NCBI RefSeq assembly: GCF_988242995.1
Contig: NZ_OZ547043.1
Reading direction: 5' to 3' (one strand)
DNA: 64,000 bases
The notes beneath the pieces were generated by a model. It was not told where the DNA came from, did not search any database, and saw nothing but the letters and a program-made list of their open reading frames with translations. Numbering within the stretch: the stretch's first letter is position 1; each line of letters opens with the position of its first letter. Below are positions 7,371 to 38,259 of this stretch, piece after piece. Position numbers and translations under genes: made by a program.

Positions 7371-7457
7371 AAATCCCGACCCTGAGGGGGTCGGGATGAA
7401 ACTTGCTTAAGCAAGAAGCACTTAAAAAATTCGTTACACCAGGAAATCTGATGTGTT
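7371..7457 (-). ncRNA. dsrA: sRNA DsrA (Hfq-dependent regulator of rpoS and hns)
   Basis: Minus-strand sequence reads AACACATCAGATTTCCTGGTGTAACGAATTTTTTAAGTGCTTCTTGCTTAAGCAAGTTTCATCCCGACCCCCTCAGGGTCGGGATTT, the DsrA sequence including its terminator hairpin. Confidence 0.92.
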
Positions 7458-15859: not shown

Positions 15860-15950
15860 TTTTTATTATTCTGTGTCATGATGCTTACGTTATTAGCCTT
15901 TTATCGTCTTGTTTATATTTTTTGGGCCGGCATGATGCCGGCTTTTTTTA
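15860..15950 (+). ncRNA. rseX: Candidate sRNA RseX, placed by synteny and terminator only
   Basis: Intrinsic terminator GCCGGC-ATGAT-GCCGGC plus T7 at 15926-15949 in the yedR-yedS intergenic region where RseX lies in E. coli K-12; RNA sequence not independently recognised. Confidence 0.35.
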
Positions 15951-16260
15951 TACCTTCATTAATGTGCGCGTGATCACACCAAGTGTTTAGCGCAACAATC
16001 ATTGATACTCCCTATCTTTCCGCTTAACTCATAACATATTGATATACATTTATAATTTTCATGAATATTTATATTTGGAATTCATAATTCTGAATTATAT
16101 TAAATAGATTAGAAACATTTTGAAATCTTTTAAATACATTTGTTACATGTAATCCTTAAAATAAAATGAACTTCATAGAATAGTATCCAAATGTGCTTTT
16201 TTTTGGATAACGGCACTTATTGATATATTCATGAAGATTATAATCACAAGGGAATACATA

Positions 16261-17319
16261 ATGAAAAGAAAAGTTCTGGCAATGCTGGTCCCGGCGTTAT
16301 TAGTTGCTGGCGCAGCAAATGCGGCTGAAATTTATAATAAAAATGGCAATAAACTGGATTTGTACGGCAAGATGGTTGGTGAGCGCATTCTGACCGACCG
16401 TGAAAATGGTGAAAAAGGCGATAATTCTCAAGATACCTCTTATGCCCGTGTAGGCGTGAAAGGTGAAACTCAGATCAACCCTGAATTGACTGGTTACGGT
16501 CAGTTTGAACTAGACCTGGAAGCATCAAACAGACACAACCCTGACCAAACTCGTTTGGCTTATGCTGGTTTGAGTTACAAAGATTTTGGTTCATTCGACT
16601 ATGGTCGTAATGTCGGTGTCGCGTATGATGCAGAAGCATTTACTGATATGTTTGTTGAGTGGGGCGGTGATTCATGGGCTGGTACTGACCTGTTCATGAC
16701 CAACCGTACCAACGGTGTTGCAACCTATCGTAACACAGATTTCTTTGGCATGGTTGAAGGTCTAAATTTTGCTCTGCAATATCAGGGTAAAAATGAAGGT
16801 ACAGGCAACTACAAAGCAAATGGCGATGGCCATGGTTTATCTGTAACTTACACTATTGACGGTTTCTCATTTGCTGGTGCTTACGCAAACTCTGATCGTA
16901 CTGATTTCCAGTCTAGTGATAGTAAAGGTGAAAAAGCAGAAGTTTGGGCACTGTCAACAAAATATGATGCCAACAACGTCTATGCTGCTGTGATGTACGG
17001 TGAATCTCACAACATGAATTCCGACGACGGTGATGTTGTGAACAAAACACAAAACTTCGAAGCTGTTCTGCAATATCAGTTCGACTTCGGTCTGCGTCCA
17101 TCCATCGGTTACTCCTATTCTAAAGCACTGGACGTAGCAGGTTACAAAGATTCTGATCGTCTGAACTACATTGAAATCGGTACCTGGTATTACTTCAATA
17201 AGAACATGAACGTATATACCGCTTATCAGATCAACCTGCTTGATAAGAGTGATTATGTTCTCGCTCATGGACTGAACACCGACGACCAACTCGCATTTGG
17301 TATCGTCTACCAGTTCTAA
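16261..17319 (+). CDS. yedS: OmpC/OmpF-family general porin (YedS type), intact
   Basis: Signal peptide MKRKVLAMLVPALLVAGAANA, porin beta-barrel with C-terminal ...FGIVYQF; start trimmed to ATG 16261. Confidence 0.85.
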   Translation: MKRKVLAMLVPALLVAGAANAAEIYNKNGNKLDLYGKMVGERILTDRENGEKGDNSQDTSYARVGVKGETQINPELTGYGQFELDLEASNRHNPDQTRLAYAGLSYKDFGSFDYGRNVGVAYDAEAFTDMFVEWGGDSWAGTDLFMTNRTNGVATYRNTDFFGMVEGLNFALQYQGKNEGTGNYKANGDGHGLSVTYTIDGFSFAGAYANSDRTDFQSSDSKGEKAEVWALSTKYDANNVYAAVMYGESHNMNSDDGDVVNKTQNFEAVLQYQFDFGLRPSIGYSYSKALDVAGYKDSDRLNYIEIGTWYYFNKNMNVYTAYQINLLDKSDYVLAHGLNTDDQLAFGIVYQF

Positions 17320-17361
17320 TCAGCCAACGCGCCGCGGCGTGTTACTGTAAAACTTAACACT

Positions 17362-17399
17362 AGCCTGAGTTCGTCCCTCATCGAACTCAGGCTTTTTTA
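17362..17399 (+). terminator. Rho-independent terminator after the porin gene
   Basis: Hairpin AGCCTGAGTTCG...CGAACTCAGGCT followed by TTTTTTAT. Confidence 0.8.
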
Positions 17400-17911
17400 T
17401 TGGCATTTTATCTCCCTCTGCGGCACGCGCAATTGCCAAAGCATATCGATACAGTACCTTACCCTGCCCCTGCTGGCACAATAACATCTACCAGCGACTC
17501 ATCCAGCCAACACTCCAAATACATTTCTTTATGAATTAACCCGCAACAAACACGCCTCCCATATAGAAATTTTTGCAAAAAAAGTGCATGGAAAAAGCTT
17601 TTTCTCTACCAATCCGCGATATAAATATTCATCAGTACCACAATATTTCACAGCACTAAATCTCTCCCCGCCGCCCCGTACCTTTGATAATGGTCTAAAA
17701 TCATTGAGGCCACTTGCGACGACGTTGCTCAATAAGGAAAATTTGGCGTGAATAATATTCAACACCAGTGCAGCATCATCATTACATACTTACACCCGCC
17801 GACTACCGCTTTCGATATATTGACTCAATTTTCCAGACTGGTTAAAAATAGCGACCAGCTCAGTCGCAAATATAGTGACTACCCTAACTAAGCAACAATA
17901 AGGAATACACT

Positions 17912-25544: not shown

Positions 25545-25634
25545 TGGCGGAGAGAGGGGGATTTGAACCCCCGGTAGAGTTGCCCCTACTCCGGTTTTCG
25601 AGACCGGTCCGTTCAGCCGCTCCGGCATCTCTCC
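25545..25634 (-). tRNA. serU: tRNA-Ser
   Basis: Minus strand reads GGAGAGATGCCGGAGCGGCTGAACGGACCGGTCTCGAAAACCGGAGTAGGGGCAACTCTACCGGGGGTTCAAATCCCCCTCTCTCCGCCA (long variable arm, CCA end). Confidence 0.92.
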
Positions 25635-25727
25635 GTTCAGATGGTTGCCATGATGCCAGGAAATTTGGCATTTTAACAGTCCCTGTCCGTGCAATTTTGT
25701 TCAAGTGACGAGTTTGCGAGCAAAACG

Positions 25728-26525
25728 ATGATTAAGTGGCCCTGGAAAGTACAAGAATCAGCACATCAAACTGCCCTTCCCTGGCAGGAAGCACTATCGA
25801 TCCCCCTTTTAACGTGTCTGACGGAACAGGAACAAAGCAAATTAGTCACTCTTGCCGAACGTTTTTTACAGCAAAAGCGGCTTGTTCCTTTACAGGGCTT
25901 TGAACTGGATTCATTAAGAAGCTGCCGGATAGCACTTCTATTTTGCCTACCCGTTCTGGAGTTAGGACTGGAATGGCTGGATGGTTTTCATGAAGTCTTA
26001 ATTTATCCTGCGCCATTTGTGGTCGATGATGAATGGGAAGACGATATCGGTCTGGTGCATAACCAACGTATTGTTCAGTCAGGTCAGAGCTGGCAGCAAG
26101 GGCCTATCGTTTTGAACTGGTTGGATATACAAGATTCTTTTGATGCTTCTGGTTTTAACCTGATTATTCATGAAGTCGCTCATAAGCTGGACACCCGTAA
26201 CGGCGATCGCGCCAGCGGAGTTCCCTTTATTCCGTTGCGTGAGGTTGCTGGCTGGGAACACGATCTTCATGCTGCAATGAACAACATTCAGGAAGAAATC
26301 GAATTGGTTGGCGAGAATGCGGCGAGCATTGATGCTTATGCTGCCAGTGATCCTGCTGAATGTTTTGCCGTACTTTCTGAATATTTCTTTAGCGCCCCAG
26401 AACTTTTTGCTCCTCGTTTCCCTTCATTGTGGCAACGTTTCTGCCAATTTTATCAACAAGATCCTTTGCAGAGACTGCATCGCGCTAATGATACAGATTC
26501 GTTTTCGGCGACGAATGTTCATTAA
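25728..26525 (+). CDS. mtfA: Mlc titration factor MtfA (zinc aminopeptidase-like)
   Basis: Start trimmed to [23 protein letters not shown]...; contains a HEVAH zinc motif. Confidence 0.9.
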
Positions 26526-26625
26526 TTAACAACTTTGCAGATTAATTAACCAATTGAAATGACTTATGAAATTTAGTGTTGACAGACAAGGTACCGCTAA
26601 GTAATATGCGCCCCGTTCACACGAT

Positions 26626-26701
26626 TCCTCTGTAGTTCAGTCGGTAGAACGGCGGACTGTTAATCCGTATGTCACTGGTTCGAGTCCAGTCAGAGGAGCC
26701 A
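26626..26701 (+). tRNA. asnT: tRNA-Asn (GTT)
   Basis: TCCTCTGTAGTTCAGTCGGTAGAACGGCGGACTGTTAATCCGTATGTCACTGGTTCGAGTCCAGTCAGAGGAGCCA. Confidence 0.95.
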
Positions 26702-26863
26702 GATTCAAGTTTTCATGCTTATCTGTACGTTTATATTTGTTTACGATTCAGTAAGTTAGCGTGAAAATCCTTGCCGGTGCGTATCTGGTTTTATCTCCGC
26801 ATCGGGATAATTTGGTGGTCAGATCTGGGGTCAGTTTGGTTCGATTCTGGAGTGACCCCCAAA

Positions 26864-27743
26864 ATGTCTTTAAACGATTCTAAAATCCGCAAGTTAAAAT
26901 CTTCTTCCCGTCCGGTAAAACTCTCCGACTCTCACGGTCTGTATCTGCTCGTCAATCCGGGCGGTTCGCGCATCTGGTATCTCAAATATCGTTTCAACGG
27001 AAAAGAATCCAGAGTCAGTCTTGGCGCATACCCGCTGGTCTCACTGGCAGAAGCCAGGCAACAGCGCGACGGTATCCGCAAGTTACTGGCGCAGAATATC
27101 AACCCGGCGCAGCAGCGCATGGCAGAGAAAGCCGCCTGCTCCCCTGAAAAGTGCTTTAAAGCGGTGGCGCTGGCCTGGCACAAAACCAACAAAAAATGGT
27201 CGGCTGATTATGCCGCCCGTATTCTCGCCAGTATGGAAAACCATATCTTCCCGGCGGTTGGTCATTTGCCCGTTGCCAAACTTAAAACGCAGGATTTCAC
27301 TGCCCTGCTGAGGGTTATTGAGGATAAGGGCTTTCTGGAAGTCGCGTCCCGCACGCGGCAGCAACTCAGCAACATCATGCGCTATGCCGTATAGCAGGGG
27401 CTTACCGAAAGCAATCCGGCGCAGCATCTGGATGGCGTTGTCTCCTCCCCCGTAAAGAATCACTACCCCGCGTTACCGCTGGAGCGGTTGTCCGAACTGC
27501 TTGGCCGCATCGGTGACTATCAGCAGGGCCGGGAGTTAACCCGGCTGGCGGAGGTGCTGACACTGCACCTGTTCATCCGTTCCAGCGAACTGCGTTTCGC
27601 CCGCTGGAGCGAGATCGATTTCAGGCACAAAATCTGGACCATCCCCGCCACCCGCGAGGCCATCGACAAAGTTCGGTTTTCGGGGCGTGGCGCAAAAATG
27701 CGTACTCCGCATATCGTACCGCTCTCCCGCCAGGCGATTGCCC
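26864..27743 (+). pseudogene. P4-type tyrosine integrase remnant: in-frame TAG at 27395-27397 and 3' truncation by IS1
   Basis: N-terminal MSLNDSKIRKLK...GLYLLVNPGGSRIWYLKYRFNGKE... typical of tRNA-associated P4-like integrases; the same frame continues after the TAG (QGLTESNPAQHLDG...) and stops at the IS1 end. Confidence 0.8.
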
Positions 27744-27758
27744 GGTAATGACTCCAAC

Positions 27759-28262
27759 TTATTGATAGTGTTTTATGTTCAGATAATGCCCGATGACTTT
27801 GTCATGCAGCTCCACCGATTTTGAGAACGACAGCGACTTCCGTCCCAGCCGTGCCAGGTGCTGCCTCAGATTCAGGTTATGCCGCTCAATTCGCTGCGTA
27901 TATCGCTTGCTGATTACGTGCAGCTTTCCCTTCAGGCGGGATTCATACAGCGGCCAGCCATCCGTCATCCATATCACCACGTCAAAGGGTGACAGCAGGC
28001 TCATAAGACGCCCCAGCGTCGCCATAGTACGTTCACCGAATACGTGCGCAACAACCGTCTTCCGGAGACTGTCATACGCGTAAAACAGCCAGCGCTGGCG
28101 CGATTTAGCCCCGACATAGCCCCACTGTTCGTCCATTTCCGCGCAGACGATGACGTCACTGCCCGGCTGTATGCGCGAGGTTACCGACTGCGGCCTGAGT
28201 TTTTTAAGTGACGTAAAATCGTGTTGAGGCCAACGCCCATAATGCGGGCTGTTGCCCGGCAT
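27759..28262 (-). CDS. insB: IS1 InsB (expressed as InsAB' by -1 frameshift)
   Basis: 167-aa ORF overlapping insA in the -1 frame. Confidence 0.93.
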
Positions 28263-28456
28263 CCAACGCCATTCATGGCCATATCAATGATTTTCTGGTG
28301 CGTACCGGGTTGAGAAGCGGTGTAAGTGAACTGCAGTTGCCATGTTTTACGGCAGTGAGAGCAGAGATAGCGCTGATGTCCGGCGGTGCTTTTGCCGTTA
28401 CGCACCACCCCGTCAGTAGCTGAACAGGAGGGACAGCTGATAGAAACAGAAGCCAC
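28181..28456 (-). CDS. insA: IS1 InsA
   Basis: 91-aa [94 protein letters not shown]. Confidence 0.93.
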
Positions 28457-28512
28457 TGGAGCACCTCAAAAACACCATCATACACTAAATCAGTAAGTTG
28501 GCAGCATCACCG

Positions 28513-29268
28513 AAAATTAGCGCAATTGATTACAGTCAAAATATCAACGGTGATTACAAAGCCACCATTACAGGCGGCGGAGAGGGTATCGCAACGCTGA
28601 TCCCTGTATTGAATGGTGTTCATCAAGCTGGTCTGAGTACCACAATACAATTCACTCGCGCAGAAGACAAAATAATGAGCGGTACAGTATCAGTCAATGG
28701 TACTGACCTACCGACAACTACATTCCCTTCGCAGGGGTTCACCGGGGCGTATTATCAGTTGAATAATGACAACTTTGCCCCAGGAAAAACGGCGGCTGAT
28801 TATGAGTTTTCAAGCTCTGCCTCCTGGGTCGATGTTGATGCTACCGGTAAAGTGACATTTAAAAATGTCGGCAGCAATTGGGAAAGGATTACGGCGACGC
28901 CAAAATCAGGAGGCCCTAGCTATGTATACGAAATCCGTGTGAAGAGTTGGTGGGTGAACTCCGGCGATGCTTTCATGATATACAGCCTTGCTGAAAATTT
29001 TTGCAGTAGCAATGGCTACACACTTCCCCGTGCAGACCATTTAAACCATAGTCGTTCCCGAGGCATCGGGTCACTGTACAGTGAATGGGGAGATATGGGG
29101 CATTACACGACTGAAGCTGGTTTTCAATCAAATATGTATTGGTCATCTAGTCCCGCAAACTCAAGCGAACAATACGTAGTTTCCCTGGCAACAGGTGATC
29201 AAAGCGTATTTGAAAAGCTTGGGTTTGCTTATGCGACATGTTATAAAACCTGTGATTTTCCGTTATAA
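28513..29268 (+). pseudogene. yeeJ: C-terminal fragment of a large adhesin (YeeJ-like), 5' part removed at the IS1 junction
   Basis: Coding sequence starts abruptly at the IS1 end with no start codon; YeeJ assignment is by position next to asnT and yeeL. Confidence 0.6.
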
Positions 29269-29274
29269 TTTCTT

Positions 29275-29306
29275 AAAGAGTGCTCCATTCGGAGCACTCT
29301 TTTTTA
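29275..29306 (+). terminator. Rho-independent terminator after the adhesin fragment
   Basis: AAGAGTGCTCC-ATTC-GGAGCACTCTT followed by TTTTTAC. Confidence 0.75.
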
Positions 29307-29516
29307 CATTCCCTCTATAGAGCTTGCCCTTCTCTCACAGAAAATGAATAAATAAAACTGCTGCACCGCAAGAATCGCGTTCGATGTGACTATGATCGTA
29401 TCCGGTGAGTACAGCTTTGATCCAAAGGCTGGTTTTCTGTGATGATTGACCAGCCTCAGAGTATTGATGACACCACCGTTCATAACAGATCGGCATTACT
29501 ATGCATAAGTACTGTC

Positions 29517-30632
29517 TCATATTCTCGCCAAAACACTTTTTAATGCCTTTGCGAATTCATCCAGACTTATATTGTCAATTTTTTGCCCAACGACGACTGA
29601 CTCCGAAACATCGGCCATTGCGGGCCATCGCGTTTTGTAATCAGCATAAATTGCAACAACGGGAGTATTATAGGCACTTGCCATATGTAATATTGAGGTG
29701 TCAGGAGTTATTGCGATATAAGCATCTTTTATGATTGCTGCTGAACGTTTAATCGAGGGTGATAAGGATAAACGGTAGACATTATTATAACAATCCACTA
29801 ATACCCTGGCTTTATCTTCCCCTTTTGGTCCATGAACGATCACTATTGGTATATCTGTTTCACTTTGAATTTTTGCTATTAGATTTTCTGCAATCGATAA
29901 TGAAAATGTACGTTCCTGCGAGCTACCTTCTAAATTGAACGCAATGTAAGATCCTAACGATCGCATTTCCTCGCGCACCTCATCGAGTACATCCTCACTT
30001 AGTGGCAATTCATATATTGGCCTGACTGCTGGAAAACCCGCCTCACGCATCATAAATGCCCATGTCATAGGTACGGGAGCCCGGAGTTTCTGATCCATAC
30101 GGGACGCGTTCTTGCACAAAGGGGAGTAGCAATTCATGGTTATACCAACAACCTGAAAATTCGTTTTTGCTTTCAACTGACTGATAAATAACATCGTTTT
30201 CAGGTTCTTTTTACGCATCGCCTCTATACAAAGATCCGGCGTACCGTATTGCTGTGTTATGTTCTTCGCTAAATCTTTTATTTCTTTTAATGTTGCGTGA
30301 TCCTGCATAGTCATTGTGACTAATGTTAATTTAGTCTTTTCAAGTTTAAGTGCATTAAACACTTCTAAATTAATTGTCGACGTAACAATTAAAAGATGCT
30401 TAATTTTATGCAATTCAAGCGCCCGAATAACAGGAAAGATGGCCATAGCATCGCCAATCTGGTCGGGAATATGGATAACAACAAACTCTGTTTTTTCAAT
30501 ATTAAAATTATAAGCTTTATAATCGTAGTAACTAAATGCAATACGTCTCAACAATGATGCTAAAAACATACCTAACCTCGCCTCCCTACTGGTTATAATG
30601 CATTGCAGTCTATCAGACTCATCATGGCGCAA
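29517..30632 (-). CDS. yeeL: Glycosyltransferase family 9 (heptosyltransferase-like) protein
   Basis: 371-aa ORF with GT-B/heptosyltransferase features; gene symbol assigned by synteny (asnT-yeeJ-yeeL-shiA). Confidence 0.7.
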   Translation of the reverse strand: MRHDESDRLQCIITSREARLGMFLASLLRRIAFSYYDYKAYNFNIEKTEFVVIHIPDQIGDAMAIFPVIRALELHKIKHLLIVTSTINLEVFNALKLEKTKLTLVTMTMQDHATLKEIKDLAKNITQQYGTPDLCIEAMRKKNLKTMLFISQLKAKTNFQVVGITMNCYSPLCKNASRMDQKLRAPVPMTWAFMMREAGFPAVRPIYELPLSEDVLDEVREEMRSLGSYIAFNLEGSSQERTFSLSIAENLIAKIQSETDIPIVIVHGPKGEDKARVLVDCYNNVYRLSLSPSIKRSAAIIKDAYIAITPDTSILHMASAYNTPVVAIYADYKTRWPAMADVSESVVVGQKIDNISLDEFAKALKSVLARI

Positions 30633-30883
30633 TTTTGTGCATATGCGGACTTTTATGTTTCATATCTCGAACCTGTGGGTCCTCTGCTTAATCCTTAAAC
30701 AACACCAGCAACTCCTGCGCTTTCATCTTCCAGCGAATTTTTCATGTTGCCGTTAATCGGCCATAAAATCATTTGCAGATGCGCTCTGTCGAGGTAGTCT
30801 CATAAGGTTCGTTTATAGATCGACGGCAATGTGAGTTACCTTTTCCATACTAATTATAAAAAGACAGTACAAACAGGATCATT

Positions 30884-32200
30884 ATGGACTCCACGCTCAT
30901 CTCCACTCGTCCCGATGAAGGGACGCTTTCGTTAAGTCGCGCCCGACGAGCTGCGTTAGGCAGTTTCGCTGGTGCCGTCGTCGACTGGTATGATTTTTTA
31001 CTCTATGGCATTACCGCCGCACTGGTGTTTAATCGCGAGTTTTTTCCGCAAGTAAGCCCGGCGATGGGAACGCTCGCCGCATTTGCCACCTTTGGCGTCG
31101 GATTCCTTTTCCGTCCGCTCGGCGGTGTCATTTTCGGTCACTTTGGCGACCGACTGGGACGTAAGCGCATGTTAATGCTGACCGTCTGGATGATGGGCAT
31201 CGCGACAGCCTTGATTGGTATTCTTCCTTCCTTCTCGACCATTGGGTGGTGGGCACCTATTTTACTGGTGACGCTGCGTGCCATTCAGGGATTTGCCGTC
31301 GGCGGCGAATGGGGAGGCGCGGCGTTGCTTTCCGTTGAAAGTGCACCGAAAAATAAAAAAGCCTTTTACAGTAGCGGTGTACAAGTTGGCTACGGTGTAG
31401 GTTTACTGCTTTCAACCGGACTGGTTTCATTGATCAGTATGATGACGACTGACGAACAGTTTTTAAGCTGGGGCTGGCGCATTCCTTTCCTGTTTAGCAT
31501 CGTACTGGTACTGGGAGCATTGTGGGTGCGCAATGGCATGGAGGAGTCCGCGGAATTTGAACAACAGCAACATTATCAAGCTGCCGCGAAAAAACGCATC
31601 CCGGTTATCGAAGCGCTGTTACGACATCCCGGTGCTTTCCTGAAGATTATTGCGCTACGACTGTGCGAATTGCTGACGATGTACATCGTTACTGCCTTCG
31701 CACTTAATTATTCAACCCAGAATATGGGGTTACCGCGCGAACTTTTCCTCAATATTGGTTTGCTGGTAGGTGGATTAAGCTGCCTGACAATTCCCTGTTT
31801 TGCCTGGCTTGCCGATCGTTTTGGTCGCCGCAGGGTTTATATCACAGGCGCGTTAATCGGAACGTTGAGCGCATTTCCTTTCTTTATGGCGCTTGAAGCA
31901 CAATCTATTTTCTGGATAGTTTTCTTCTCCATAATGCTGGCAAACATTGCGCATGACATGGTGGTGTGTGTGCAACAACCGATGTTTACCGAAATGTTTG
32001 GTGCCAGTTATCGCTATAGTGGCGCTGGAGTCGGTTATCAGGTTGCCAGTGTGGTTGGCGGTGGATTTACACCTTTTATTGCCGCTGCACTCATCACTTA
32101 CTTTGCCGGGAACTGGCATAGCGTCGCCATTTATTTGCTGGCTGGATGCCTGATTTCCGCAATGACCGCTTTGTTGATGAAAGACAGTCAACGCGCTTGA
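30884..32200 (+). CDS. shiA: Shikimate:H+ symporter ShiA (MFS)
   Basis: 438-aa 12-TM MFS protein. Confidence 0.88.
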   Translation: MDSTLISTRPDEGTLSLSRARRAALGSFAGAVVDWYDFLLYGITAALVFNREFFPQVSPAMGTLAAFATFGVGFLFRPLGGVIFGHFGDRLGRKRMLMLTVWMMGIATALIGILPSFSTIGWWAPILLVTLRAIQGFAVGGEWGGAALLSVESAPKNKKAFYSSGVQVGYGVGLLLSTGLVSLISMMTTDEQFLSWGWRIPFLFSIVLVLGALWVRNGMEESAEFEQQQHYQAAAKKRIPVIEALLRHPGAFLKIIALRLCELLTMYIVTAFALNYSTQNMGLPRELFLNIGLLVGGLSCLTIPCFAWLADRFGRRRVYITGALIGTLSAFPFFMALEAQSIFWIVFFSIMLANIAHDMVVCVQQPMFTEMFGASYRYSGAGVGYQVASVVGGGFTPFIAAALITYFAGNWHSVAIYLLAGCLISAMTALLMKDSQRA

Positions 32201-32301
32201 TAGCCTGGCGAAGATCATCCGATCTTCGCCTTACACTTTTGTTTCACATTTCTGTGACATACTATCGGATGTGCGGTAATTGTATGGAACAGGAGACACA
32301 C

Positions 32302-33756
32302 ATGAATAATAAGGGCTCCGGTCTGACCCCAGCTCAGGCACTGGATAAACTCGACGCGCTGTATGAGCAATCTGTAGTCGCATTACGCAACGCCATTGGC
32401 AACTATATTACAAGTGGCGAATTACCTGATGAAAACGCCCGCAAACAAGGTCTTTTTGTCTATCCATCACTGACCGTAACCTGGGACGGTAGCACAACCA
32501 ATCCCCCCAAAACGCGCGCATTTGGTCGCTTTACCCACGCAGGCAGCTACACCACCACGATTACTCGCCCTACTCTCTTTCGTTCGTATCTTAATGAACA
32601 ACTTACGTTGCTGTATCAGGATTATGGTGCGCATATCTCTGTGCAACCCTCGCAGCATGAAATCCCCTATCCTTATGTCATCGATGGCTCTGAATTGACA
32701 CTTGATCGCTCAATGAGCGCTGGGTTAACTCGCTACTTCCCGACAACAGAACTGGCGCAAATTGGCGATGAAACTGCAGACGGCATTTATCATCCAACTG
32801 AATTCTCCCCGCTATCGCATTTTGATGCGCGCCGCGTCGATTTTTCCCTCGCACGGTTGCGCCATTATACCGGTACGCCAGTTGAACATTTTCAGCCGTT
32901 CGTCTTGTTTACCAACTACACACGTTATGTGGATGAATTCGTTCGTTGGGGATGCAGCCAGATCCTCGATCCTGATAGTCCCTACATTGCCCTTTCTTGT
33001 GCTGGCGGGAACTGGATCACCGCCGAAACCGAAGCGCCAGAAGAAGCCATTTCCGACCTTGCATGGAAAAAACACCAGATGCCAGCATGGCATTTAATTA
33101 CCGCCGATGGTCAGGGTATTACTCTGGTGAATATTGGCGTGGGACCGTCCAATGCTAAAACCATCTGCGATCATCTGGCAGTGCTACGCCCGGATGTCTG
33201 GTTGATGATTGGTCACTGTGGCGGATTACGTGAAAGTCAGGCCATTGGCGATTATGTACTTGCACACGCTTATTTACGCGATGACCACGTTCTTGATGCG
33301 GTTCTGCCGCCCGATATTCCTATTCCGAGCATTGCTGAAGTGCAACGTGCGCTTTATGACGCCACCAAGCTGGTGAGTGGCAGGCCCGGTGAGGAAGTCA
33401 AACAGCGGCTACGTACAGGTACTGTGGTAACCACAGATGACAGGAACTGGGAATTACGTTACTCAGCTTCTGCACTTCGTTTTAACTTAAGCCGGGCCGT
33501 AGCAATTGATATGGAAAGTGCAACCATTGCCGCGCAAGGATATCGTTTCCGCGTGCCATACGGGACACTACTGTGTGTTTCAGATAAACCATTACATGGT
33601 GAGATTAAACTTCCCGGTCAGGCTAACCGTTTTTATGAAGGTGCTATTTCCGAACACCTGCAAATTGGCATTCGGGCGATCGATTTGCTGCGCGCAGAAG
33701 GCGACCGACTACATTCACGTAAATTACGAACCTTTAATGAGCCGCCGTTCCGATAG
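32302..33756 (+). CDS. amn: AMP nucleosidase Amn
   Basis: Start trimmed to MNNKGSGLTPAQALDKLDALYEQ... (484 aa). Confidence 0.92.
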   Translation: MNNKGSGLTPAQALDKLDALYEQSVVALRNAIGNYITSGELPDENARKQGLFVYPSLTVTWDGSTTNPPKTRAFGRFTHAGSYTTTITRPTLFRSYLNEQLTLLYQDYGAHISVQPSQHEIPYPYVIDGSELTLDRSMSAGLTRYFPTTELAQIGDETADGIYHPTEFSPLSHFDARRVDFSLARLRHYTGTPVEHFQPFVLFTNYTRYVDEFVRWGCSQILDPDSPYIALSCAGGNWITAETEAPEEAISDLAWKKHQMPAWHLITADGQGITLVNIGVGPSNAKTICDHLAVLRPDVWLMIGHCGGLRESQAIGDYVLAHAYLRDDHVLDAVLPPDIPIPSIAEVQRALYDATKLVSGRPGEEVKQRLRTGTVVTTDDRNWELRYSASALRFNLSRAVAIDMESATIAAQGYRFRVPYGTLLCVSDKPLHGEIKLPGQANRFYEGAISEHLQIGIRAIDLLRAEGDRLHSRKLRTFNEPPFR

Positions 33757-34098
33757 TAAGTTCTGAACCTTCTTATCAAAAATAGATGTGAAGGATTAAG
33801 TAAGACATCTGGCAAATAACCCGCAATAAACGCGGGCTGTTTGCTTCCTTGGGCGGATACGAGTTTTATTATCGTCTTAATGATTTCCACATATTAAAAG
33901 CAAGTATGCTTTCAAAACACAATTATAAAAAATCCCGCCAACAATATATGTTTTTATAAAAATAAATATATGATTATGGCTTTAGAATATTTTTATTTCT
34001 AATAGACGAGATTTTTCCTGTTATGATATAATATGCCGAATTAACACATGTTAACGATTTACCAGTAATGTAAATAAATTTTCGAGGAGATCATTCCA

Positions 34099-34815
34099 GT
34101 GGGACGTAAATGGGCCAATATTGTTGCTAAAAAAACGGCTAAAGACGGTGCAACGTCTAAAATTTATGCAAAATTCGGTGTAGAAATCTATGCTGCTGCT
34201 AAACAAGGTGAACCCGATCCAGAATTAAACACATCTTTAAAATTCGTTATTGAACGTGCAAAGCAGGCACAAGTTCCAAAGCACGTTATTGATAAAGCAA
34301 TTGATAAAGCCAAAGGCGGCGGAGATGAAACGTTCGTGCAGGGACGTTATGAAGGCTTTGGTCCTAATGGCTCAATGATTATCGCCGAGACATTGACTTC
34401 AAATGTTAACCGTACGATTGCTAACGTTCGCACAATTTTCAATAAAAAAGGCGGCAATATCGGAGCGGCAGGTTCTGTCAGCTATATGTTTGACAATACG
34501 GGTGTGATTGTATTTAAAGGATCAGACCCTGACCATATTTTTGAAATTTTACTTGAAGCTGAAGTTGATGTTCGTGATGTGACTGAAGAAGAAGGTAACA
34601 TTGTTATTTATACTGAACCTACTGACCTTCATAAAGGAATCGCGGCTCTAAAAGCATCTGGAATCACTGAGTTCTCAACAACAGAATTAGAAATGATTGC
34701 TCAATCTGAAGTTGAGCTTTCCCCAGAAGATTTAGAAATCTTTGAAGGGCTTGTTGATGCCCTTGAAGATGACGACGATGTACAAAAAGTTTATCATAAC
34801 GTCGCAAATCTCTAA
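34099..34815 (+). CDS. yeeN: YebC/PmpR-family transcriptional regulator YeeN
   Basis: 238-aa ORF (GTG start) [26 protein letters not shown]... Confidence 0.9.
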
Positions 34816-34822
34816 TTATATT

Positions 34823-34856
34823 TTAAAGAAATCTGTCTTTATGGCAGATTTCTTTA
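34823..34856 (+). terminator. Putative terminator hairpin after yeeN
   Basis: AAAGAAATCTG...CAGATTTCTTT; weak U-tract. Confidence 0.4.
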
Positions 34857-35270
34857 ATCTCATAGAATCCTTATAAAAAATATAATGTTTAACTCATCAT
34901 ATTGCTTATAAAAAATCCCCGTCCCCAGAGAAATAATATTTATTAAAATGGCAGGTCTTCTTTTTCTGATTACCGAAGACAAAGTGGCAATTACGTATAG
35001 TTTCCCGATAAAGACGCGACAGCTACATCCCGCATAAGGCATTTTTCTCTTTATCTTTGTACGGTACTTCATGGAACAGAATTTTTGACCTTGTGAATCG
35101 TGATGTCTGTTGGGGAGGGGCAATTTGCTCACTGAAGCGTGAGACTCAATTAAGCGCACGAAACACAGAAATCAAAAAACCCGGTCACTTTTTTACAAGG
35201 TAACCGGGTAAAAATAATTTTTATTTTTTAACTGCTTTGAGACTCATAGAGATGTCTCAAAACTAAAATT

Positions 35271-35346
35271 TGGCTCCTCTGACTGGACTCGAACCAGTGA
35301 CATACGGATTAACAGTCCGCCGTTCTACCGACTGAACTACAGAGGA
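35271..35346 (-). tRNA. asnW: tRNA-Asn (GTT)
   Basis: Reverse complement is identical to asnT. Confidence 0.95.
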
Positions 35347-35446
35347 ATCGTGAGAACGAGGCGAATATTAGCGATGCCCACCCACAATGTCAAAGCCTGT
35401 TTTTTAAATTTGAAATCGTTTGCTGAAATAATCTGCATTTTGTCGT

Positions 35447-37087
35447 TTATTCCGACACAACTGGCTTTTTTTCACACTTTTGCGACTCGGATCGAGGGTA
35501 TTTCCATAGCCAACGTCCAGTAACCATTCGCCAGTAAAACAGCACGGCCCGCACAGCCCAGTCGGCAAACATTCCCATCCAGACACCAACCACACCCCAG
35601 CCAAGCATGATTCCCAGCACATAACCGACTACAACCCGACAACCCCACATGCTCAACATCGAAACCCACATGGCGTAACGGGCATCACGAGCACCTTTAA
35701 ATCCAGCGGGTAGCACCCATGAGGCGGACCAAATAGGCATAAATAAAGCATTTAGCCAAATCAGAATCACAACGACATGTTTAACCTGTGGATCCTGGGT
35801 GTAAAACGATGCCATAAGCCCGGCAAAGGGAGCCGTTAGCCAGGCGATGGCCGTTAATCCAAGAGTGGACAGCCAGAACACATGCCGCAACTGAATCTCT
35901 GCTTGCGCTATCTGCCCTACCCCCAACCTTCGGCCTGTAATGATCGTAGAAGCAGAGCCGAGCGCACTTCCGGGTAAGTTGATAAGAGCCGCAATTGAAA
36001 ACGCGATAAAATTTCCGGCAATAACACTGGTCCCCATTCCGGCAACGAACATTTGGGTTAATAACCGACCACTGGTAAATAACACTGATTCGACACTCGC
36101 TGGAATACCAATCCCCATGACTTCCCAGATAATGCTAAAATTCAGCGGTTTAAAATAGCTCTTTAACGAAATCCTTAGCGCAGGATTAAAACCTATCGCC
36201 AGCACCCACAAAATTGCAACTGCGCCAATATAACGAGAAATGGTTAAACCCAACCCAGCCCCGACAAATCCCAGTCCCGGCCAGGAGAAAAGGCCGTAAA
36301 TCAATATGCCGCTAATAATAATATTAAGAATATTCAGGCTACCGTTAATCAGTAGCGGTATTTTCGTATTCCCTGCACCACGAAGTGCCCCACTACCAAT
36401 CAAAGTGATGGCAGCTGCTGGATAACTGAGTACCGTCAGCTCCAGATAAGTCAACGCCAGTGCTTTAACTTCTGTCGTGGCATCACCCGCGACGAAATCA
36501 ATAATTTGTTCGCCAAAATGATGAATAAGCGTTGCCAACAGTACGGCAAACAACGTCATGATCACCAATGACTGCCGCGTCGCCACCCTCGCTCGTCGTC
36601 GATCCCGCTTACCGAGACTAAATGCCACAACGACAGTGGTACCAAGATCGATAGCAGCAAAAAAAGCCATAATGACCATATTGAAGCTGTCCGCCAATCC
36701 CACGCCGGCCATCGCATCTTTTCCCAGCCAGCTGACCAGAAAAGTGCTCAGGACACCCATCAACAGGACACAGGCATTCTCCATGAAGATAGGAACAGCA
36801 AGCGGGGTTATCTCGCGCCAGAACAACACTTTGTAGCTCTTGCGTTTAGCGTGCCAGCGAGTGCCGTGAACAACCTGGCGTAAAGCAGAGGAGATATTCA
36901 AAGCCGACCTTAATTGCAGAAAGTGAAACCACATTTCAAATAATGAGGGAGAATCAGCAAAGCTGCAAAGATTTTCGCCAACAAATTGTCTGCAAATGCA
37001 ACAAACTGTTGATAGAAACGGCAAACAGTTGGGGAATTTAAAAATCGGGTTTGACAAAAGATTTTTCGCCGTTAAGATGTGCCTCAA
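35447..37087 (-). CDS. yeeO: MATE-family efflux transporter YeeO
   Basis: 12-TM MATE protein; the ORF is probably over-extended at its N-terminus (true start likely an internal Met). Confidence 0.85.
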   Translation of the reverse strand: MRHILTAKNLLSNPIFKFPNCLPFLSTVCCICRQFVGENLCSFADSPSLFEMWFHFLQLRSALNISSALRQVVHGTRWHAKRKSYKVLFWREITPLAVPIFMENACVLLMGVLSTFLVSWLGKDAMAGVGLADSFNMVIMAFFAAIDLGTTVVVAFSLGKRDRRRARVATRQSLVIMTLFAVLLATLIHHFGEQIIDFVAGDATTEVKALALTYLELTVLSYPAAAITLIGSGALRGAGNTKIPLLINGSLNILNIIISGILIYGLFSWPGLGFVGAGLGLTISRYIGAVAILWVLAIGFNPALRISLKSYFKPLNFSIIWEVMGIGIPASVESVLFTSGRLLTQMFVAGMGTSVIAGNFIAFSIAALINLPGSALGSASTIITGRRLGVGQIAQAEIQLRHVFWLSTLGLTAIAWLTAPFAGLMASFYTQDPQVKHVVVILIWLNALFMPIWSASWVLPAGFKGARDARYAMWVSMLSMWGCRVVVGYVLGIMLGWGVVGVWMGMFADWAVRAVLFYWRMVTGRWLWKYPRSESQKCEKKPVVSE

Positions 37088-37094
37088 CAGCGAT

Positions 37095-37170
37095 TCCTCT
37101 GTAGTTCAGTCGGTAGAACGGCGGACTGTTAATCCGTATGTCACTGGTTCGAGTCCAGTCAGAGGAGCCA
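37095..37170 (+). tRNA. asnU: tRNA-Asn (GTT)
   Basis: Identical to asnT. Confidence 0.95.
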
Positions 37171-37179
37171 AATTTCTGA

Positions 37180-37207
37180 AAAGCCCGCTTTTATAGCGGG
37201 CTTTTTG
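37180..37207. terminator. Hairpin terminator between asnU and cbl
   Basis: AAAGCCCGCT-TTTAT-AGCGGGCTTT followed by TTG. Confidence 0.75.
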
Positions 37208-38158
37208 CTATATCTGATAATCAATTTCCTCTTCACTGTTTTCCATCACCTGCCGCTTGATATCCTCAACTGAAAGTCCTGCATTACAAAGTTCCAGAAA
37301 GCGCCAGACATAGTTACGCTGAAGTTGCCCTCGCTTGAGTCCCAACCAGACAGTATTAGCATCGAAAAGATGCCGCGTATCCAGGCGGATTAAATTCTTT
37401 TCCTCTTGTTCACCGCTGGATTGTTCGGCAACTAATCCGATCCCCAGCCCAAGAGCAACATAGGTTTTAATGACATCAGAATCCTGCGCACTTAATACAA
37501 TATCTGCCAGCAAACCTTTGCGGGCAAATGCGTCATCAATACGTGAGCGCCCCGTAATCCCCTGTCGGTAAGTGATTAACGGCCACTTCGCTATTGATTC
37601 CAGCGTCAATGGTGTAATTTGCGTCAAGGGATGATCGAGTGGAACAAGCAAACTATGGTGCCAACGAAACCACGGGAAGGCGACGAGCTGCGGGTCATTA
37701 CTCAAACGCTCGCTGGCGATACCAATATCAGCTTCGCCATTTTGCAACAACGTCGCAATTTCCTGTGGCGTCCCCTGGATTAGCTCGAGCCGAACCTCCG
37801 GGAAAAGTTCGCGAAAAGCTTTAATGACCCCTGGCAAGCTATAACGCGCCTGAGTATGCGTCGTTGCAATAGTGAGAACGCCAGACGTATCGTTGGTAAA
37901 CAGGTCTGCAAGCCGACGAACATTACTGGCTTCATTCAGAATACGTTCTGCAATGACCAGTAATGCTTTGCCCGGTTCAGTCATGCCCAGCAGTCGCTTA
38001 CCTCGTCGAACAAATATTTCGATGCCAAGTTCATCCTCCAGTTCCCGAATATGACGGCTGACGCCTGACTGTGAGGTAAAAAGCATATTCGCAACCTCTG
38101 TCAGGTTGTAATCCTGACGTGCAGCTTCGCGGATTATCTTTAGTTGTTGGAAATTCAC
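37208..38158 (-). CDS. cbl: LysR-family regulator Cbl (sulfonate utilisation)
   Basis: 316-aa LysR-type ORF MNFQQLKIIREAARQDYNLTEVANMLFTSQSGVSRHIRELE... Confidence 0.9.
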   Translation of the reverse strand: MNFQQLKIIREAARQDYNLTEVANMLFTSQSGVSRHIRELEDELGIEIFVRRGKRLLGMTEPGKALLVIAERILNEASNVRRLADLFTNDTSGVLTIATTHTQARYSLPGVIKAFRELFPEVRLELIQGTPQEIATLLQNGEADIGIASERLSNDPQLVAFPWFRWHHSLLVPLDHPLTQITPLTLESIAKWPLITYRQGITGRSRIDDAFARKGLLADIVLSAQDSDVIKTYVALGLGIGLVAEQSSGEQEEKNLIRLDTRHLFDANTVWLGLKRGQLQRNYVWRFLELCNAGLSVEDIKRQVMENSEEEIDYQI

Positions 38159-38259
38159 GGTAAACTCCGGGCAGTTCAGATATCCCGTTATTGTTAAAGT
38201 CTAACGCCCGGCATAACAAATAATAAAAACCCGCATCTTATTCCATCCCGATATAACGC

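What the first reader, a model, noticed from the sequence alone, without database searches (positions are those of the whole stretch)
16261..17319. yedS-type porin is intact here
The ORF encodes a complete OmpC/OmpF-like porin with signal peptide and C-terminal aromatic residue. From recollection this gene is a pseudogene in laboratory E. coli K-12, so an intact copy could affect outer-membrane permeability in this strain.
Basis: partly seen in the sequence, partly recalled or inferred. Interest (0 to 1): 0.3.

Follow-up and report, generated by a model that had tools for sequence, protein, structure and literature searches.

The report
Intact alternative porin at yedS locus
The gene is a real, intact outer-membrane pore protein at the site where lab strain K-12 has the dead gene yedS, but it is a common, very different version of that gene found in about a fifth of E. 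coli genomes, so the finding is largely ordinary.

Summary
Observation confirmed. Window 16261..17319 (+) is an uninterrupted 352-aa porin ORF. It has a full-length Pfam Porin_1 match, a Sec signal peptide, a C-terminal YQF and a predicted 16-strand barrel closest to OmpK35. It lies between rseX/drpB and hchA, the K-12 yedS position, and K-12 yedS is a pseudogene with one stop and one frameshift.

The interpretation needs correction. This is not K-12 yedS without its lesions. Promoter, 5'UTR, signal peptide and terminator are 93-100% identical to K-12. The mature-protein part is only about 60% identical in amino acids, no closer than the paralogues OmpF, OmpC and OmpN.

Among 5426 complete E. 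coli genomes the locus holds three deep allele classes:
- W (this one, 352 aa): about 1140 genomes, including Nissle 1917.
- X/Y (357/371 aa): about 1528 genomes.
- K (K-12 type, OmpN-like, 393-404 aa): about 1662 genomes, intact in some strains, dead in K-12 and an O157:H7 strain.

W is under strong purifying selection (dN/dS 0.04-0.12). It also occurs in a divergent Escherichia lineage whose flanks are about 90% identical, and it has no relative above 70% identity outside Escherichia.

A role for functional YedS in carbapenem susceptibility is already published (Warner 2013). Interest is low for the finding as stated and moderate for the cassette-like polymorphism.

The parts
15860..15949 (+). 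rseX small RNA gene, same orientation, 311 bp upstream of the porin start. It defines the locus as the K-12 rseX-yedS locus.
   Evidence: Rfam RF01401, 96.8 bits against a gathering score of 50. K-12 annotates rseX in the same relative position. One base differs from K-12.
15950..16260 (+). AT-rich regulatory region and 5'UTR, 88-100% identical to K-12 in 60-column windows (97-100% except around 15959-16018).
   Evidence: GC is 22-32% in 200-bp windows, against 52-55% in neighbouring genes.
15960..15980 (.). CRP-like palindrome TAATGTGCGCGTGATCACACC. It is the counterpart of a K-12 site assigned to yedS, with one spacer base different.
   Evidence: Read from the sequence. The K-12 site ggTGTGAtcaggcGCACAtta at 2033766 is listed in the Footprint-seq table (PMC12871828).
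16140..16167 (+). Sigma-70-like promoter candidate, TTGTTA-16-TAAAAT. Weak; consensus match only.
   Evidence: 9 of 12 matches. The region has fewer such sites than its shuffles, so this is not evidence of function.
16248..16253 (+). Shine-Dalgarno-like AAGGGA, 7 nt before the ATG.
   Evidence: Read from the sequence.
16261..16323 (+). Signal peptide coding part (MKRKVLAMLVPALLVAGAANA). The peptide is identical in all allele classes of the locus.
16324..17319 (+). Mature porin (331 aa) plus stop codon. This is the segment that differs between allele classes; it is the W class here.
16615..16704 (+). Loop L3 (residues 119-148), the constriction loop, with VEWGGD in place of the PEFGGD of E. coli OmpF/OmpC/PhoE.
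   Evidence: Secondary structure of the AlphaFold model. Alignments. D129 is invariant and E133 nearly invariant.
17362..17399 (+). Intrinsic terminator: 12-bp stem with 7 G-C pairs, followed by a T run.

Best explanation
Window 16261..17319 encodes a functional general-diffusion porin. It has a 352-aa precursor and a 331-aa mature chain. It is exported by a Sec signal peptide and inserted in the outer membrane as a 16-stranded barrel, with loop L3 folded in as the constriction. Like OmpF and OmpK35, it most likely forms trimers that let small hydrophilic solutes, including beta-lactams, diffuse through.

Genetically it is the 'W' allele class of the yedS locus. It shares promoter, 5'UTR, signal peptide and terminator with the K-12 pseudogene. 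Its mature part belongs to a different porin branch, OmpK35-like with a VEWGG L3 motif.

Because the regulatory region is the same AT-rich region as in K-12, the gene is probably a conditionally expressed ('quiescent') porin rather than a major one.

Shown here:
- intact ORF
- family membership
- predicted fold
- conserved pore residues
- locus identity
- allele classes and their frequencies
- purifying selection

Inferred:
- trimer formation
- channel activity
- conditional expression
- effect on antibiotic entry
For: Family and fold:
- Full-length Porin_1 match.
- End-to-end alignment to OmpK35, PhoE and OmpF structures, E 1e-132 to 1e-97.
- AlphaFold model with 16 strands, pLDDT 78.8. Foldseek TM-scores 0.87/0.90 to OmpK35 5o77.

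Pore residues: the equivalents of OmpF K16, R42, R82, R132 and D113 are invariant, and E117 nearly invariant, in a 30-sequence alignment.

Locus: synteny and rseX. The divergent segment has sharp borders at the signal peptide/mature junction and at the stop codon.

Allele classes: W in about 1140, X/Y in about 1528 and K in about 1662 of 5426 genomes, with identities.

Selection: W is under purifying selection. dN/dS is 0.12 against Nissle 1917 and 0.04-0.08 against a lineage with dS about 0.3.

Codon adaptation: 0.51 relative to ompF+ompC, like ompN (0.50), above phoE (0.39) and above neighbouring genes at 0.21-0.41.

Literature:
- Functional YedS together with MarR affects carbapenem resistance (Warner 2013, cited).
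- A porin '50% homologous to K-12 YedS' was detected in surface proteomics of an O26:H11 strain (PMC9731836).
Against: - There are no expression data for this strain or this allele.
- The only promoter candidate is a weak consensus match.
- The reported MicF control is not mirrored by a predicted MicF pairing at the translation start: -10 to -11.5 kcal/mol, at the median of random windows, against -27.4 for ompF.
- Strict OmpR-box patterns gave no match.
- The structural model has only moderate confidence in the loops.
- It scores below NCBIfam cut-offs for OmpF, PhoE and OmpC, so its solute preference cannot be read off a named equivalog.
Confidence: 0.8

Rival explanations
1. Silent relic. 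The ORF is intact but never expressed at a meaningful level because it is silenced by H-NS, so it has no effect on permeability.
For: The upstream region has 22-32% GC. The neighbouring rseX is reported to be H-NS-repressed (PMC8313858). The regulatory region is the same as in K-12. There is no strong promoter match.
Against: dN/dS of 0.04-0.12 over dS up to 0.3 shows that the protein is under selection. Codon adaptation is higher than in neighbouring genes. yedS transcript is measurable and responds to sigma-E induction in K-12 (PMC2731931). A YedS-like porin was detected by proteomics in an O26:H11 strain.
Confidence: 0.12
2. It is simply the un-mutated ancestral form of the K-12 yedS gene.
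For: Same locus, same signal peptide, same flanks.
Against: The mature part is about 60% identical in amino acids, with many indels. It falls in a different branch from K-12 YedS, which groups with OmpN with 82% bootstrap support; the split between the two groups has 99% support. True intact K-type alleles exist and are 86-95% identical to the repaired K-12 YedS.
Confidence: 0.02
3. Recent horizontal import. A foreign porin gene from another genus recently replaced the resident allele in this lineage.
For: The divergent segment has sharp borders. CDS GC is 43%, below the genome average. Mosaic alleles exist.
Against: No protein above 70% identity exists outside Escherichia among 5.8 billion sequences, apart from E. 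coli or metagenome mosaics. The W-specific L3 peptide was found in only one of about 100,000 species-representative genomes. That genome is a divergent Escherichia lineage in which the W gene (92.9% nt) has diverged about as much as its flanks (89-92%). W occurs in about 21% of genomes, in two sub-lineages at >=99% and about 97% identity.
Confidence: 0.06

Closest known systems
E. coli K-12 yedS (b4496; labelled 'yedS (ompS1)' in PMC2731931) and the functional YedS of Warner et al. 2013
   Same: Same chromosomal slot between rseX/drpB and hchA. The upstream 300 bp is near-identical, the signal peptide is identical, and the terminator region is similar. Same protein family.
   Different: The mature protein is only 60-61% identical. 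The K-12 type is 393-404 aa with long loops and a PEFGGD L3 motif, and it groups with OmpN. This one is 352 aa with short loops L4-L7 and a VEWGGD L3 motif. It is unknown which class Warner et al. studied, because the paper is not in the library.
Klebsiella pneumoniae OmpK35 (PDB 5o77, 9hn1), the OmpF orthologue
   Same: Best solved-structure match: E 3e-132, TM 0.87/0.90. It shares the VEWGGD L3 motif, similar length and the same constriction residues.
   Different: 59% identity in the Foldseek alignment. It sits at a different locus; OmpK35 is the ompF-locus gene. The score is below the NCBIfam OmpF cut-off, 413 against 583.
Unnamed syntenic porins of Klebsiella oxytoca, Citrobacter and Escherichia fergusonii, and the E. 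coli X/Y alleles
   Same: Same position after dcm-yedJ(-drpB). Same or nearly the same signal peptide, the VEWGGD L3 motif, and 351-371 aa.
   Different: They are 68-70% identical to W. By contrast, the X/Y alleles are 85% identical to the E. fergusonii gene and 77-80% to the Citrobacter gene. W is therefore the outlier of this syntenic family.
E. coli OmpF, OmpC, PhoE, OmpN
   Same: General-diffusion porin family, 16-strand barrel, conserved basic cluster and L3 acidic residues.
   Different: 54-58% identity. It lacks the PhoE Lys-125 equivalent: the sequence is MTNR instead of MTKR. It does not reach any equivalog cut-off.

Membership tests
General bacterial porin family (Pfam Porin_1, OmpF/OmpC/PhoE type) | Full-length match to PF00267 above the gathering score | tested here: met
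   368.4 bits against a cut-off of 23.7; profile positions 1-337 of 337.
General bacterial porin family (Pfam Porin_1, OmpF/OmpC/PhoE type) | N-terminal Sec signal peptide with an Ala-X-Ala cleavage site before AEIYNK | tested here: met
   MKRKVLAMLVPALLVAGAANA|AEIYNK aligns with the signal peptides of OmpF, OmpC and OmpN. No dedicated signal-peptide predictor was run.
General bacterial porin family (Pfam Porin_1, OmpF/OmpC/PhoE type) | 16-stranded beta-barrel with L3 folded into the lumen | tested here: met
   The AlphaFold model has 16 long strands and a helix-containing L3. TM-scores are 0.82-0.91 to solved porins. This is a prediction, not a solved structure.
General bacterial porin family (Pfam Porin_1, OmpF/OmpC/PhoE type) | Constriction residues: basic cluster (OmpF K16, R42, R82, R132) facing the L3 acidic residues (D113, E117) | tested here: met
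   All six are conserved: K37, R63, R98, R149, D129 and E133 in precursor numbering.
General bacterial porin family (Pfam Porin_1, OmpF/OmpC/PhoE type) | C-terminal beta-signal ending in an aromatic residue | tested here: met
   ...GIVYQF.
General bacterial porin family (Pfam Porin_1, OmpF/OmpC/PhoE type) | Trimer formation and passive channel conductance | not testable with these tools
   Needs biochemistry or electrophysiology.
Orthologue of K-12 yedS (b4496) | Same chromosomal position and shared regulatory region | tested here: met
Orthologue of K-12 yedS (b4496) | Mature protein closer to K-12 YedS than to paralogous porins | tested here: not met
   60-61% identity to repaired K-12 YedS, against 58% to OmpN and 54-55% to OmpF, OmpC and PhoE. 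The two fall in different branches of the tree.
OmpF / PhoE / OmpC equivalogs (NCBIfam) | Score above the curated cut-off | tested here: not met
   OmpF 413 against 583; PhoE 409 against 599; OmpC subfamily 391 against 484.
MicF-controlled porin mRNAs (ompF type) | Extended MicF 5'-end pairing over the SD and AUG | tested here: not met
   Best duplex is -10 to -11.5 kcal/mol, at about the 50th percentile of random windows. The ompF control gives -27.4, at the 0.05th percentile. This is in silico only.
Salmonella OmpS1-type quiescent porins | Sequence orthology to OmpS1, and OmpR/H-NS/LeuO control | not tested
   No Salmonella sequence was fetched. The label 'yedS (ompS1)' comes from PMC2731931. 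Strict OmpR-box patterns gave no match in the upstream region.

The most novel reading that the evidence does not exclude
The yedS locus may be a long-lived 'porin cassette' polymorphism. Three deeply divergent mature-porin classes (W, X/Y, K; 59-69% amino-acid identity between classes) each sit at about 20-30% frequency in E. coli. All three sit behind the same promoter and signal peptide. At least the W class is older than the split from a divergent Escherichia lineage. The classes would be maintained by frequency-dependent selection from phages, colicins or host immunity acting on a conditionally expressed porin. The W class, which has no close relative outside Escherichia and has never been characterised, would then be a distinct permeability route relevant to beta-lactam entry.
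Probability: 0.4. Interest if true: 0.5.

Novelty: new member of a known kind. Interest (0 to 1): 0.27.

Why it matters
For this strain, the result means a third OmpF-like channel may be available. It could partly offset loss of OmpF or OmpC, or add to beta-lactam entry, as reported for 'YedS' in a carbapenem-resistant isolate.

More generally, porin-based resistance predictions usually look only at ompF and ompC and treat yedS as a K-12-type pseudogene. Most E. coli genomes appear to carry a full-length gene from one of three very different porin classes at this locus. NCBI's pipeline even names the K-type 'ompC', which can confuse automated porin-loss calls.

The polymorphism itself is a candidate case of balancing selection on a surface protein.

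Tried and rejected
1. MicF pairing with the translation-initiation region. This was expected from my recollection of Warner 2013, but none was predicted, while the ompF control worked.
2. Other porin-regulating sRNAs. MicC, MicA and RseX seeds score at background. RybB is only in the top 10% of random windows.
3. OmpR boxes. Neither the ompC C1 box with up to 3 mismatches nor a GWWACA-N4-GWWACA pattern occurs in the upstream region.
4. Origin of the classes by loss of one gene from an ancestral tandem pair. E. fergusonii does have two porins in tandem here, but the second is NmpC-like and not K-type. The idea is therefore unsupported.
5. Reading Warner et al. 2013 directly. It is not held in the library.
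6. Placing W within the VEWGG group. The NJ bootstrap does not resolve whether it is sister to the syntenic family or to OmpK35-like porins.
7. Standard CAI table. It was unavailable, so an ompF+ompC reference was used instead. That reference is small and circular for those two genes.

Full report
**1. Observation**

The window has an open reading frame at 16231..17319. The homology-supported start is the ATG at 16261, seven bases after AAGGGA. A RefSeq genome that is 100% identical over the 1501 bases compared annotates exactly this CDS as 'porin'.

The 352-aa product has these features:
- It matches Pfam Porin_1 over the whole profile, E 5.5e-110.
- It aligns end to end with solved porins. 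The best is OmpK35 at E 3e-132, followed by PhoE, OmpF and OmpK36.
- It starts with the signal peptide MKRKVLAMLVPALLVAGAANA|AEIYNK and ends in GIVYQF.
- It has no internal stop or frameshift.

A strong intrinsic terminator follows at 17362-17393.

**2. Locus**

The neighbours are dcm, yedJ, drpB (yedR), the sRNA gene rseX (15860..15949; Rfam 96.8 bits), then the porin, hchA and hprS. K-12 MG1655 has the same order, with the pseudogene yedS (b4496) in the porin position. The K-12 sequence carries one in-frame stop and one frameshift.

**3. Not the same gene lineage**

A repaired K-12 YedS is 397 aa and only 60-61% identical to the window protein. That is no closer than the paralogues: OmpN 58%, OmpF 55-56%, OmpC 54-55%, PhoE 55%.

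A sliding comparison of the two loci shows:

| Window segment | Nucleotide identity to K-12 |
|---|---|
| From drpB to about 16330 (promoter region, 5'UTR, signal peptide) | 97-100%, apart from one 88% window near 15959-16018 |
| About 16335-17308 | 20-82% per 60-column window, with many indels |
| From 17309 to the hchA start | 85-100% |

The replaced segment is therefore exactly the mature-protein coding part.

In an NJ tree, K-12-type YedS groups with OmpN (82% bootstrap). The window protein lies on the other side of a 99%-supported split. That side also holds OmpK35-like porins and the syntenic porins of other genera. It carries VEWGGD in L3 where E. coli OmpF, OmpC, PhoE and OmpN have PEFGGD.

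**4. Allele classes in the population**

Searches of 5426 complete E. coli genomes used the mature-coding part of each type.

| Class | Precursor length | Genomes (>=80% query coverage) | Notes |
|---|---|---|---|
| W (this window) | 352 aa | about 1140 | 638 genomes at >=99% and 527 at 95-99% identity (best match per genome); includes Nissle 1917, NC101 and an ST131 strain |
| X/Y | 357 / 371 aa | about 1528 | X and Y are 90% identical to each other and 68-69% to W |
| K (K-12 type) | 393-404 aa | about 1662 | 84-100% nucleotide identity within the class |

All classes share the identical signal peptide.

K alleles are intact in strains SM107, MRSN346355, YZMc17-1 and TB4328. They are pseudogenes in K-12 and in an O157:H7 strain.

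All four W copies examined are intact 352-aa genes: this window, ST540, Nissle 1917 and L026. The 90% protein cluster holds 2356 sequences, mostly 352 aa. I could not count disrupted W alleles systematically.

Mosaic alleles exist:
- W-type 3' parts joined to other 5' parts (rows H81-H85).
- P0008, with an X-type N-terminal half and a W-type C-terminal half, on a 5.19-Mb contig.

Strains labelled ST131 or O25:H4 carry different classes: W in strain 5392, Y in CU568-3 and JJ1887.

**5. Age and origin of W**

Klebsiella oxytoca, Citrobacter and E. fergusonii carry a porin in the same position after dcm-yedJ(-drpB). Those proteins are closest to the X/Y class: 85% identity for the E. fergusonii gene and 77-80% for Citrobacter. 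They are only 68-70% identical to W.

Among 5.8 billion proteins, nothing outside Escherichia exceeds about 70% identity to W. The 72-92% hits are E. coli or metagenome mosaics.

A degenerate pattern for the W-specific L3 peptide hit only one of about 100,000 species-representative genomes. That genome is a divergent lineage filed as E. coli. There the gene sits in the same locus. The flanking genes are 89-92% identical to the window, and the W mature part is 92.9% identical. W has thus diverged along with its flanks. This argues that the class is old, not a recent import.

Within W, dN/dS is 0.12 against Nissle 1917 and 0.04-0.08 against the divergent lineage, at dS about 0.3. The protein is therefore under purifying selection.

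**6. Structure and likely function**

The AlphaFold model (pLDDT 78.8) has 16 strands and a helix-containing L3. It superposes on OmpK35 (5o77) with TM-scores of 0.87/0.90, and on OmpF, PhoE, OmpK36 and OmpC structures.

The OmpF constriction residues K16, R42, R82, R132, D113 and E117 are all conserved. The PhoE anion-selectivity lysine (K125) is replaced by Asn.

Compared with the other classes, identity is higher in strands (72-74% to X/Y, 60% to K) than in loops (49-51% and 43%). W also has very short loops L6 and L7.

The most likely function is a trimeric, non-specific or cation-preferring diffusion channel of the OmpF/OmpK35 type. The channel activity itself is inferred, not shown.

**7. 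Regulation (mostly inferred)**

The 300 bp upstream are 22-32% GC and essentially the same as in K-12, so K-12 knowledge should transfer:
- The adjacent rseX is reported to be H-NS-repressed (PMC8313858).
- yedS transcript falls 2.5-fold on sigma-E induction (PMC2731931).
- A CRP site is listed for yedS (PMC12871828). Its counterpart is at window 15960-15980.

A weak sigma-70-like site lies at 16140-16167.

I recall that Warner 2013 reported MicF control of yedS; this rests on memory, because the paper is not held. I found no ompF-like MicF pairing. I also found no strict OmpR boxes.

Codon adaptation relative to ompF+ompC is 0.51. That is like ompN (0.50), above phoE (0.39), and above the neighbouring genes at 0.21-0.41.

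Together these points suggest a conditionally expressed porin. A porin '50% homologous to K-12 YedS' was detected in surface proteomics of an O26:H11 strain (PMC9731836). I did not determine its class.

**8. Comparison with what is known, and verdict**

That yedS is dead in K-12 but functional in some clinical isolates, where it influences carbapenem susceptibility, is published (Warner et al. 2013, cited). The finding as written is therefore correct in its observation, ordinary in its frequency, and already anticipated in the literature.

I did not find the three-class structure described in the 35 papers that mention yedS. In that structure only the mature part is exchanged, behind a constant promoter and signal peptide. 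The library lacks most subscription journals, so this absence is weak evidence.

I rate the finding low (0.27). The cassette-polymorphism reading is moderately interesting if confirmed.

Noticed in passing
window 26771-29268: Just after tRNA-Asn (26626-26701) there are three elements in a row. First, a truncated P4-type integrase (207 aa; arm-binding and central domains only). Second, an IS1 transposase on the minus strand (27759-28262). Third, only a C-terminal invasin/intimin-like fragment (28498-29268) where K-12 has the large adhesin gene yeeJ. This looks like the remnant of an island at asnT with an IS1-associated deletion.
   Followed up: partly
window 15860-15949: rseX is present and intact (96.8 bits) and differs from K-12 by one base (TGCTTACG against TGCTTCCG). 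An sRNA that targets ompA and ompC sits next to an alternative porin gene. This parallels micF next to ompC and micC next to ompN in K-12.
   Followed up: partly
window 15960-15980: A CRP-like palindrome corresponds to a K-12 site listed for yedS in a 2026 Footprint-seq preprint, with one spacer base different.
   Followed up: partly
window 17309-17730: The 3' flank between the porin stop and the hchA promoter region is 85-95% identical to K-12. DNA further out is 97-100% identical. This may be diversity linked to the polymorphic porin segment.
   Followed up: no
L001, L014-L017 (K-type alleles in RefSeq genomes): NCBI's pipeline names K-type yedS alleles 'ompC: porin OmpC', both intact ones and pseudogenes. 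Such genomes therefore carry two genes called ompC, which could mislead automated porin-loss or resistome calls.
   Followed up: partly
L022 6001-7086 and 7663-8772 (E. fergusonii): E. fergusonii has two porin genes in tandem at this locus. The first is X-like (361 aa). The second is NmpC/OmpD-like (369 aa) with a different signal peptide. They are followed by a TrkH-like gene before hchA.
   Followed up: partly
proteins P0008, P0011, P0015, P0016, P0019; hits H81-H85: These are mosaic porins that join W-type halves to X/Y-type, NmpC-like, OmpF-like or OmpC-like halves. Those on multi-hundred-kb genome contigs (P0008, P0015) look like real intragenic recombinants. Those from single metagenome contigs (P0016, P0019) may be assembly chimeras.
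   Followed up: no
window 17320-17487 (- strand): A 55-aa ORF lies immediately downstream of the porin on the opposite strand and has no Pfam match. Some RefSeq genomes annotate a 'hypothetical protein' in the corresponding place.
   Followed up: no
window 7371-7457 (- strand); 25545-39579: The window also holds the dsrA sRNA gene (102.5 bits), one tRNA-Ser(CGA) and four tRNA-Asn(GTT) genes. This is the usual E. coli arrangement for the region.
   Followed up: no
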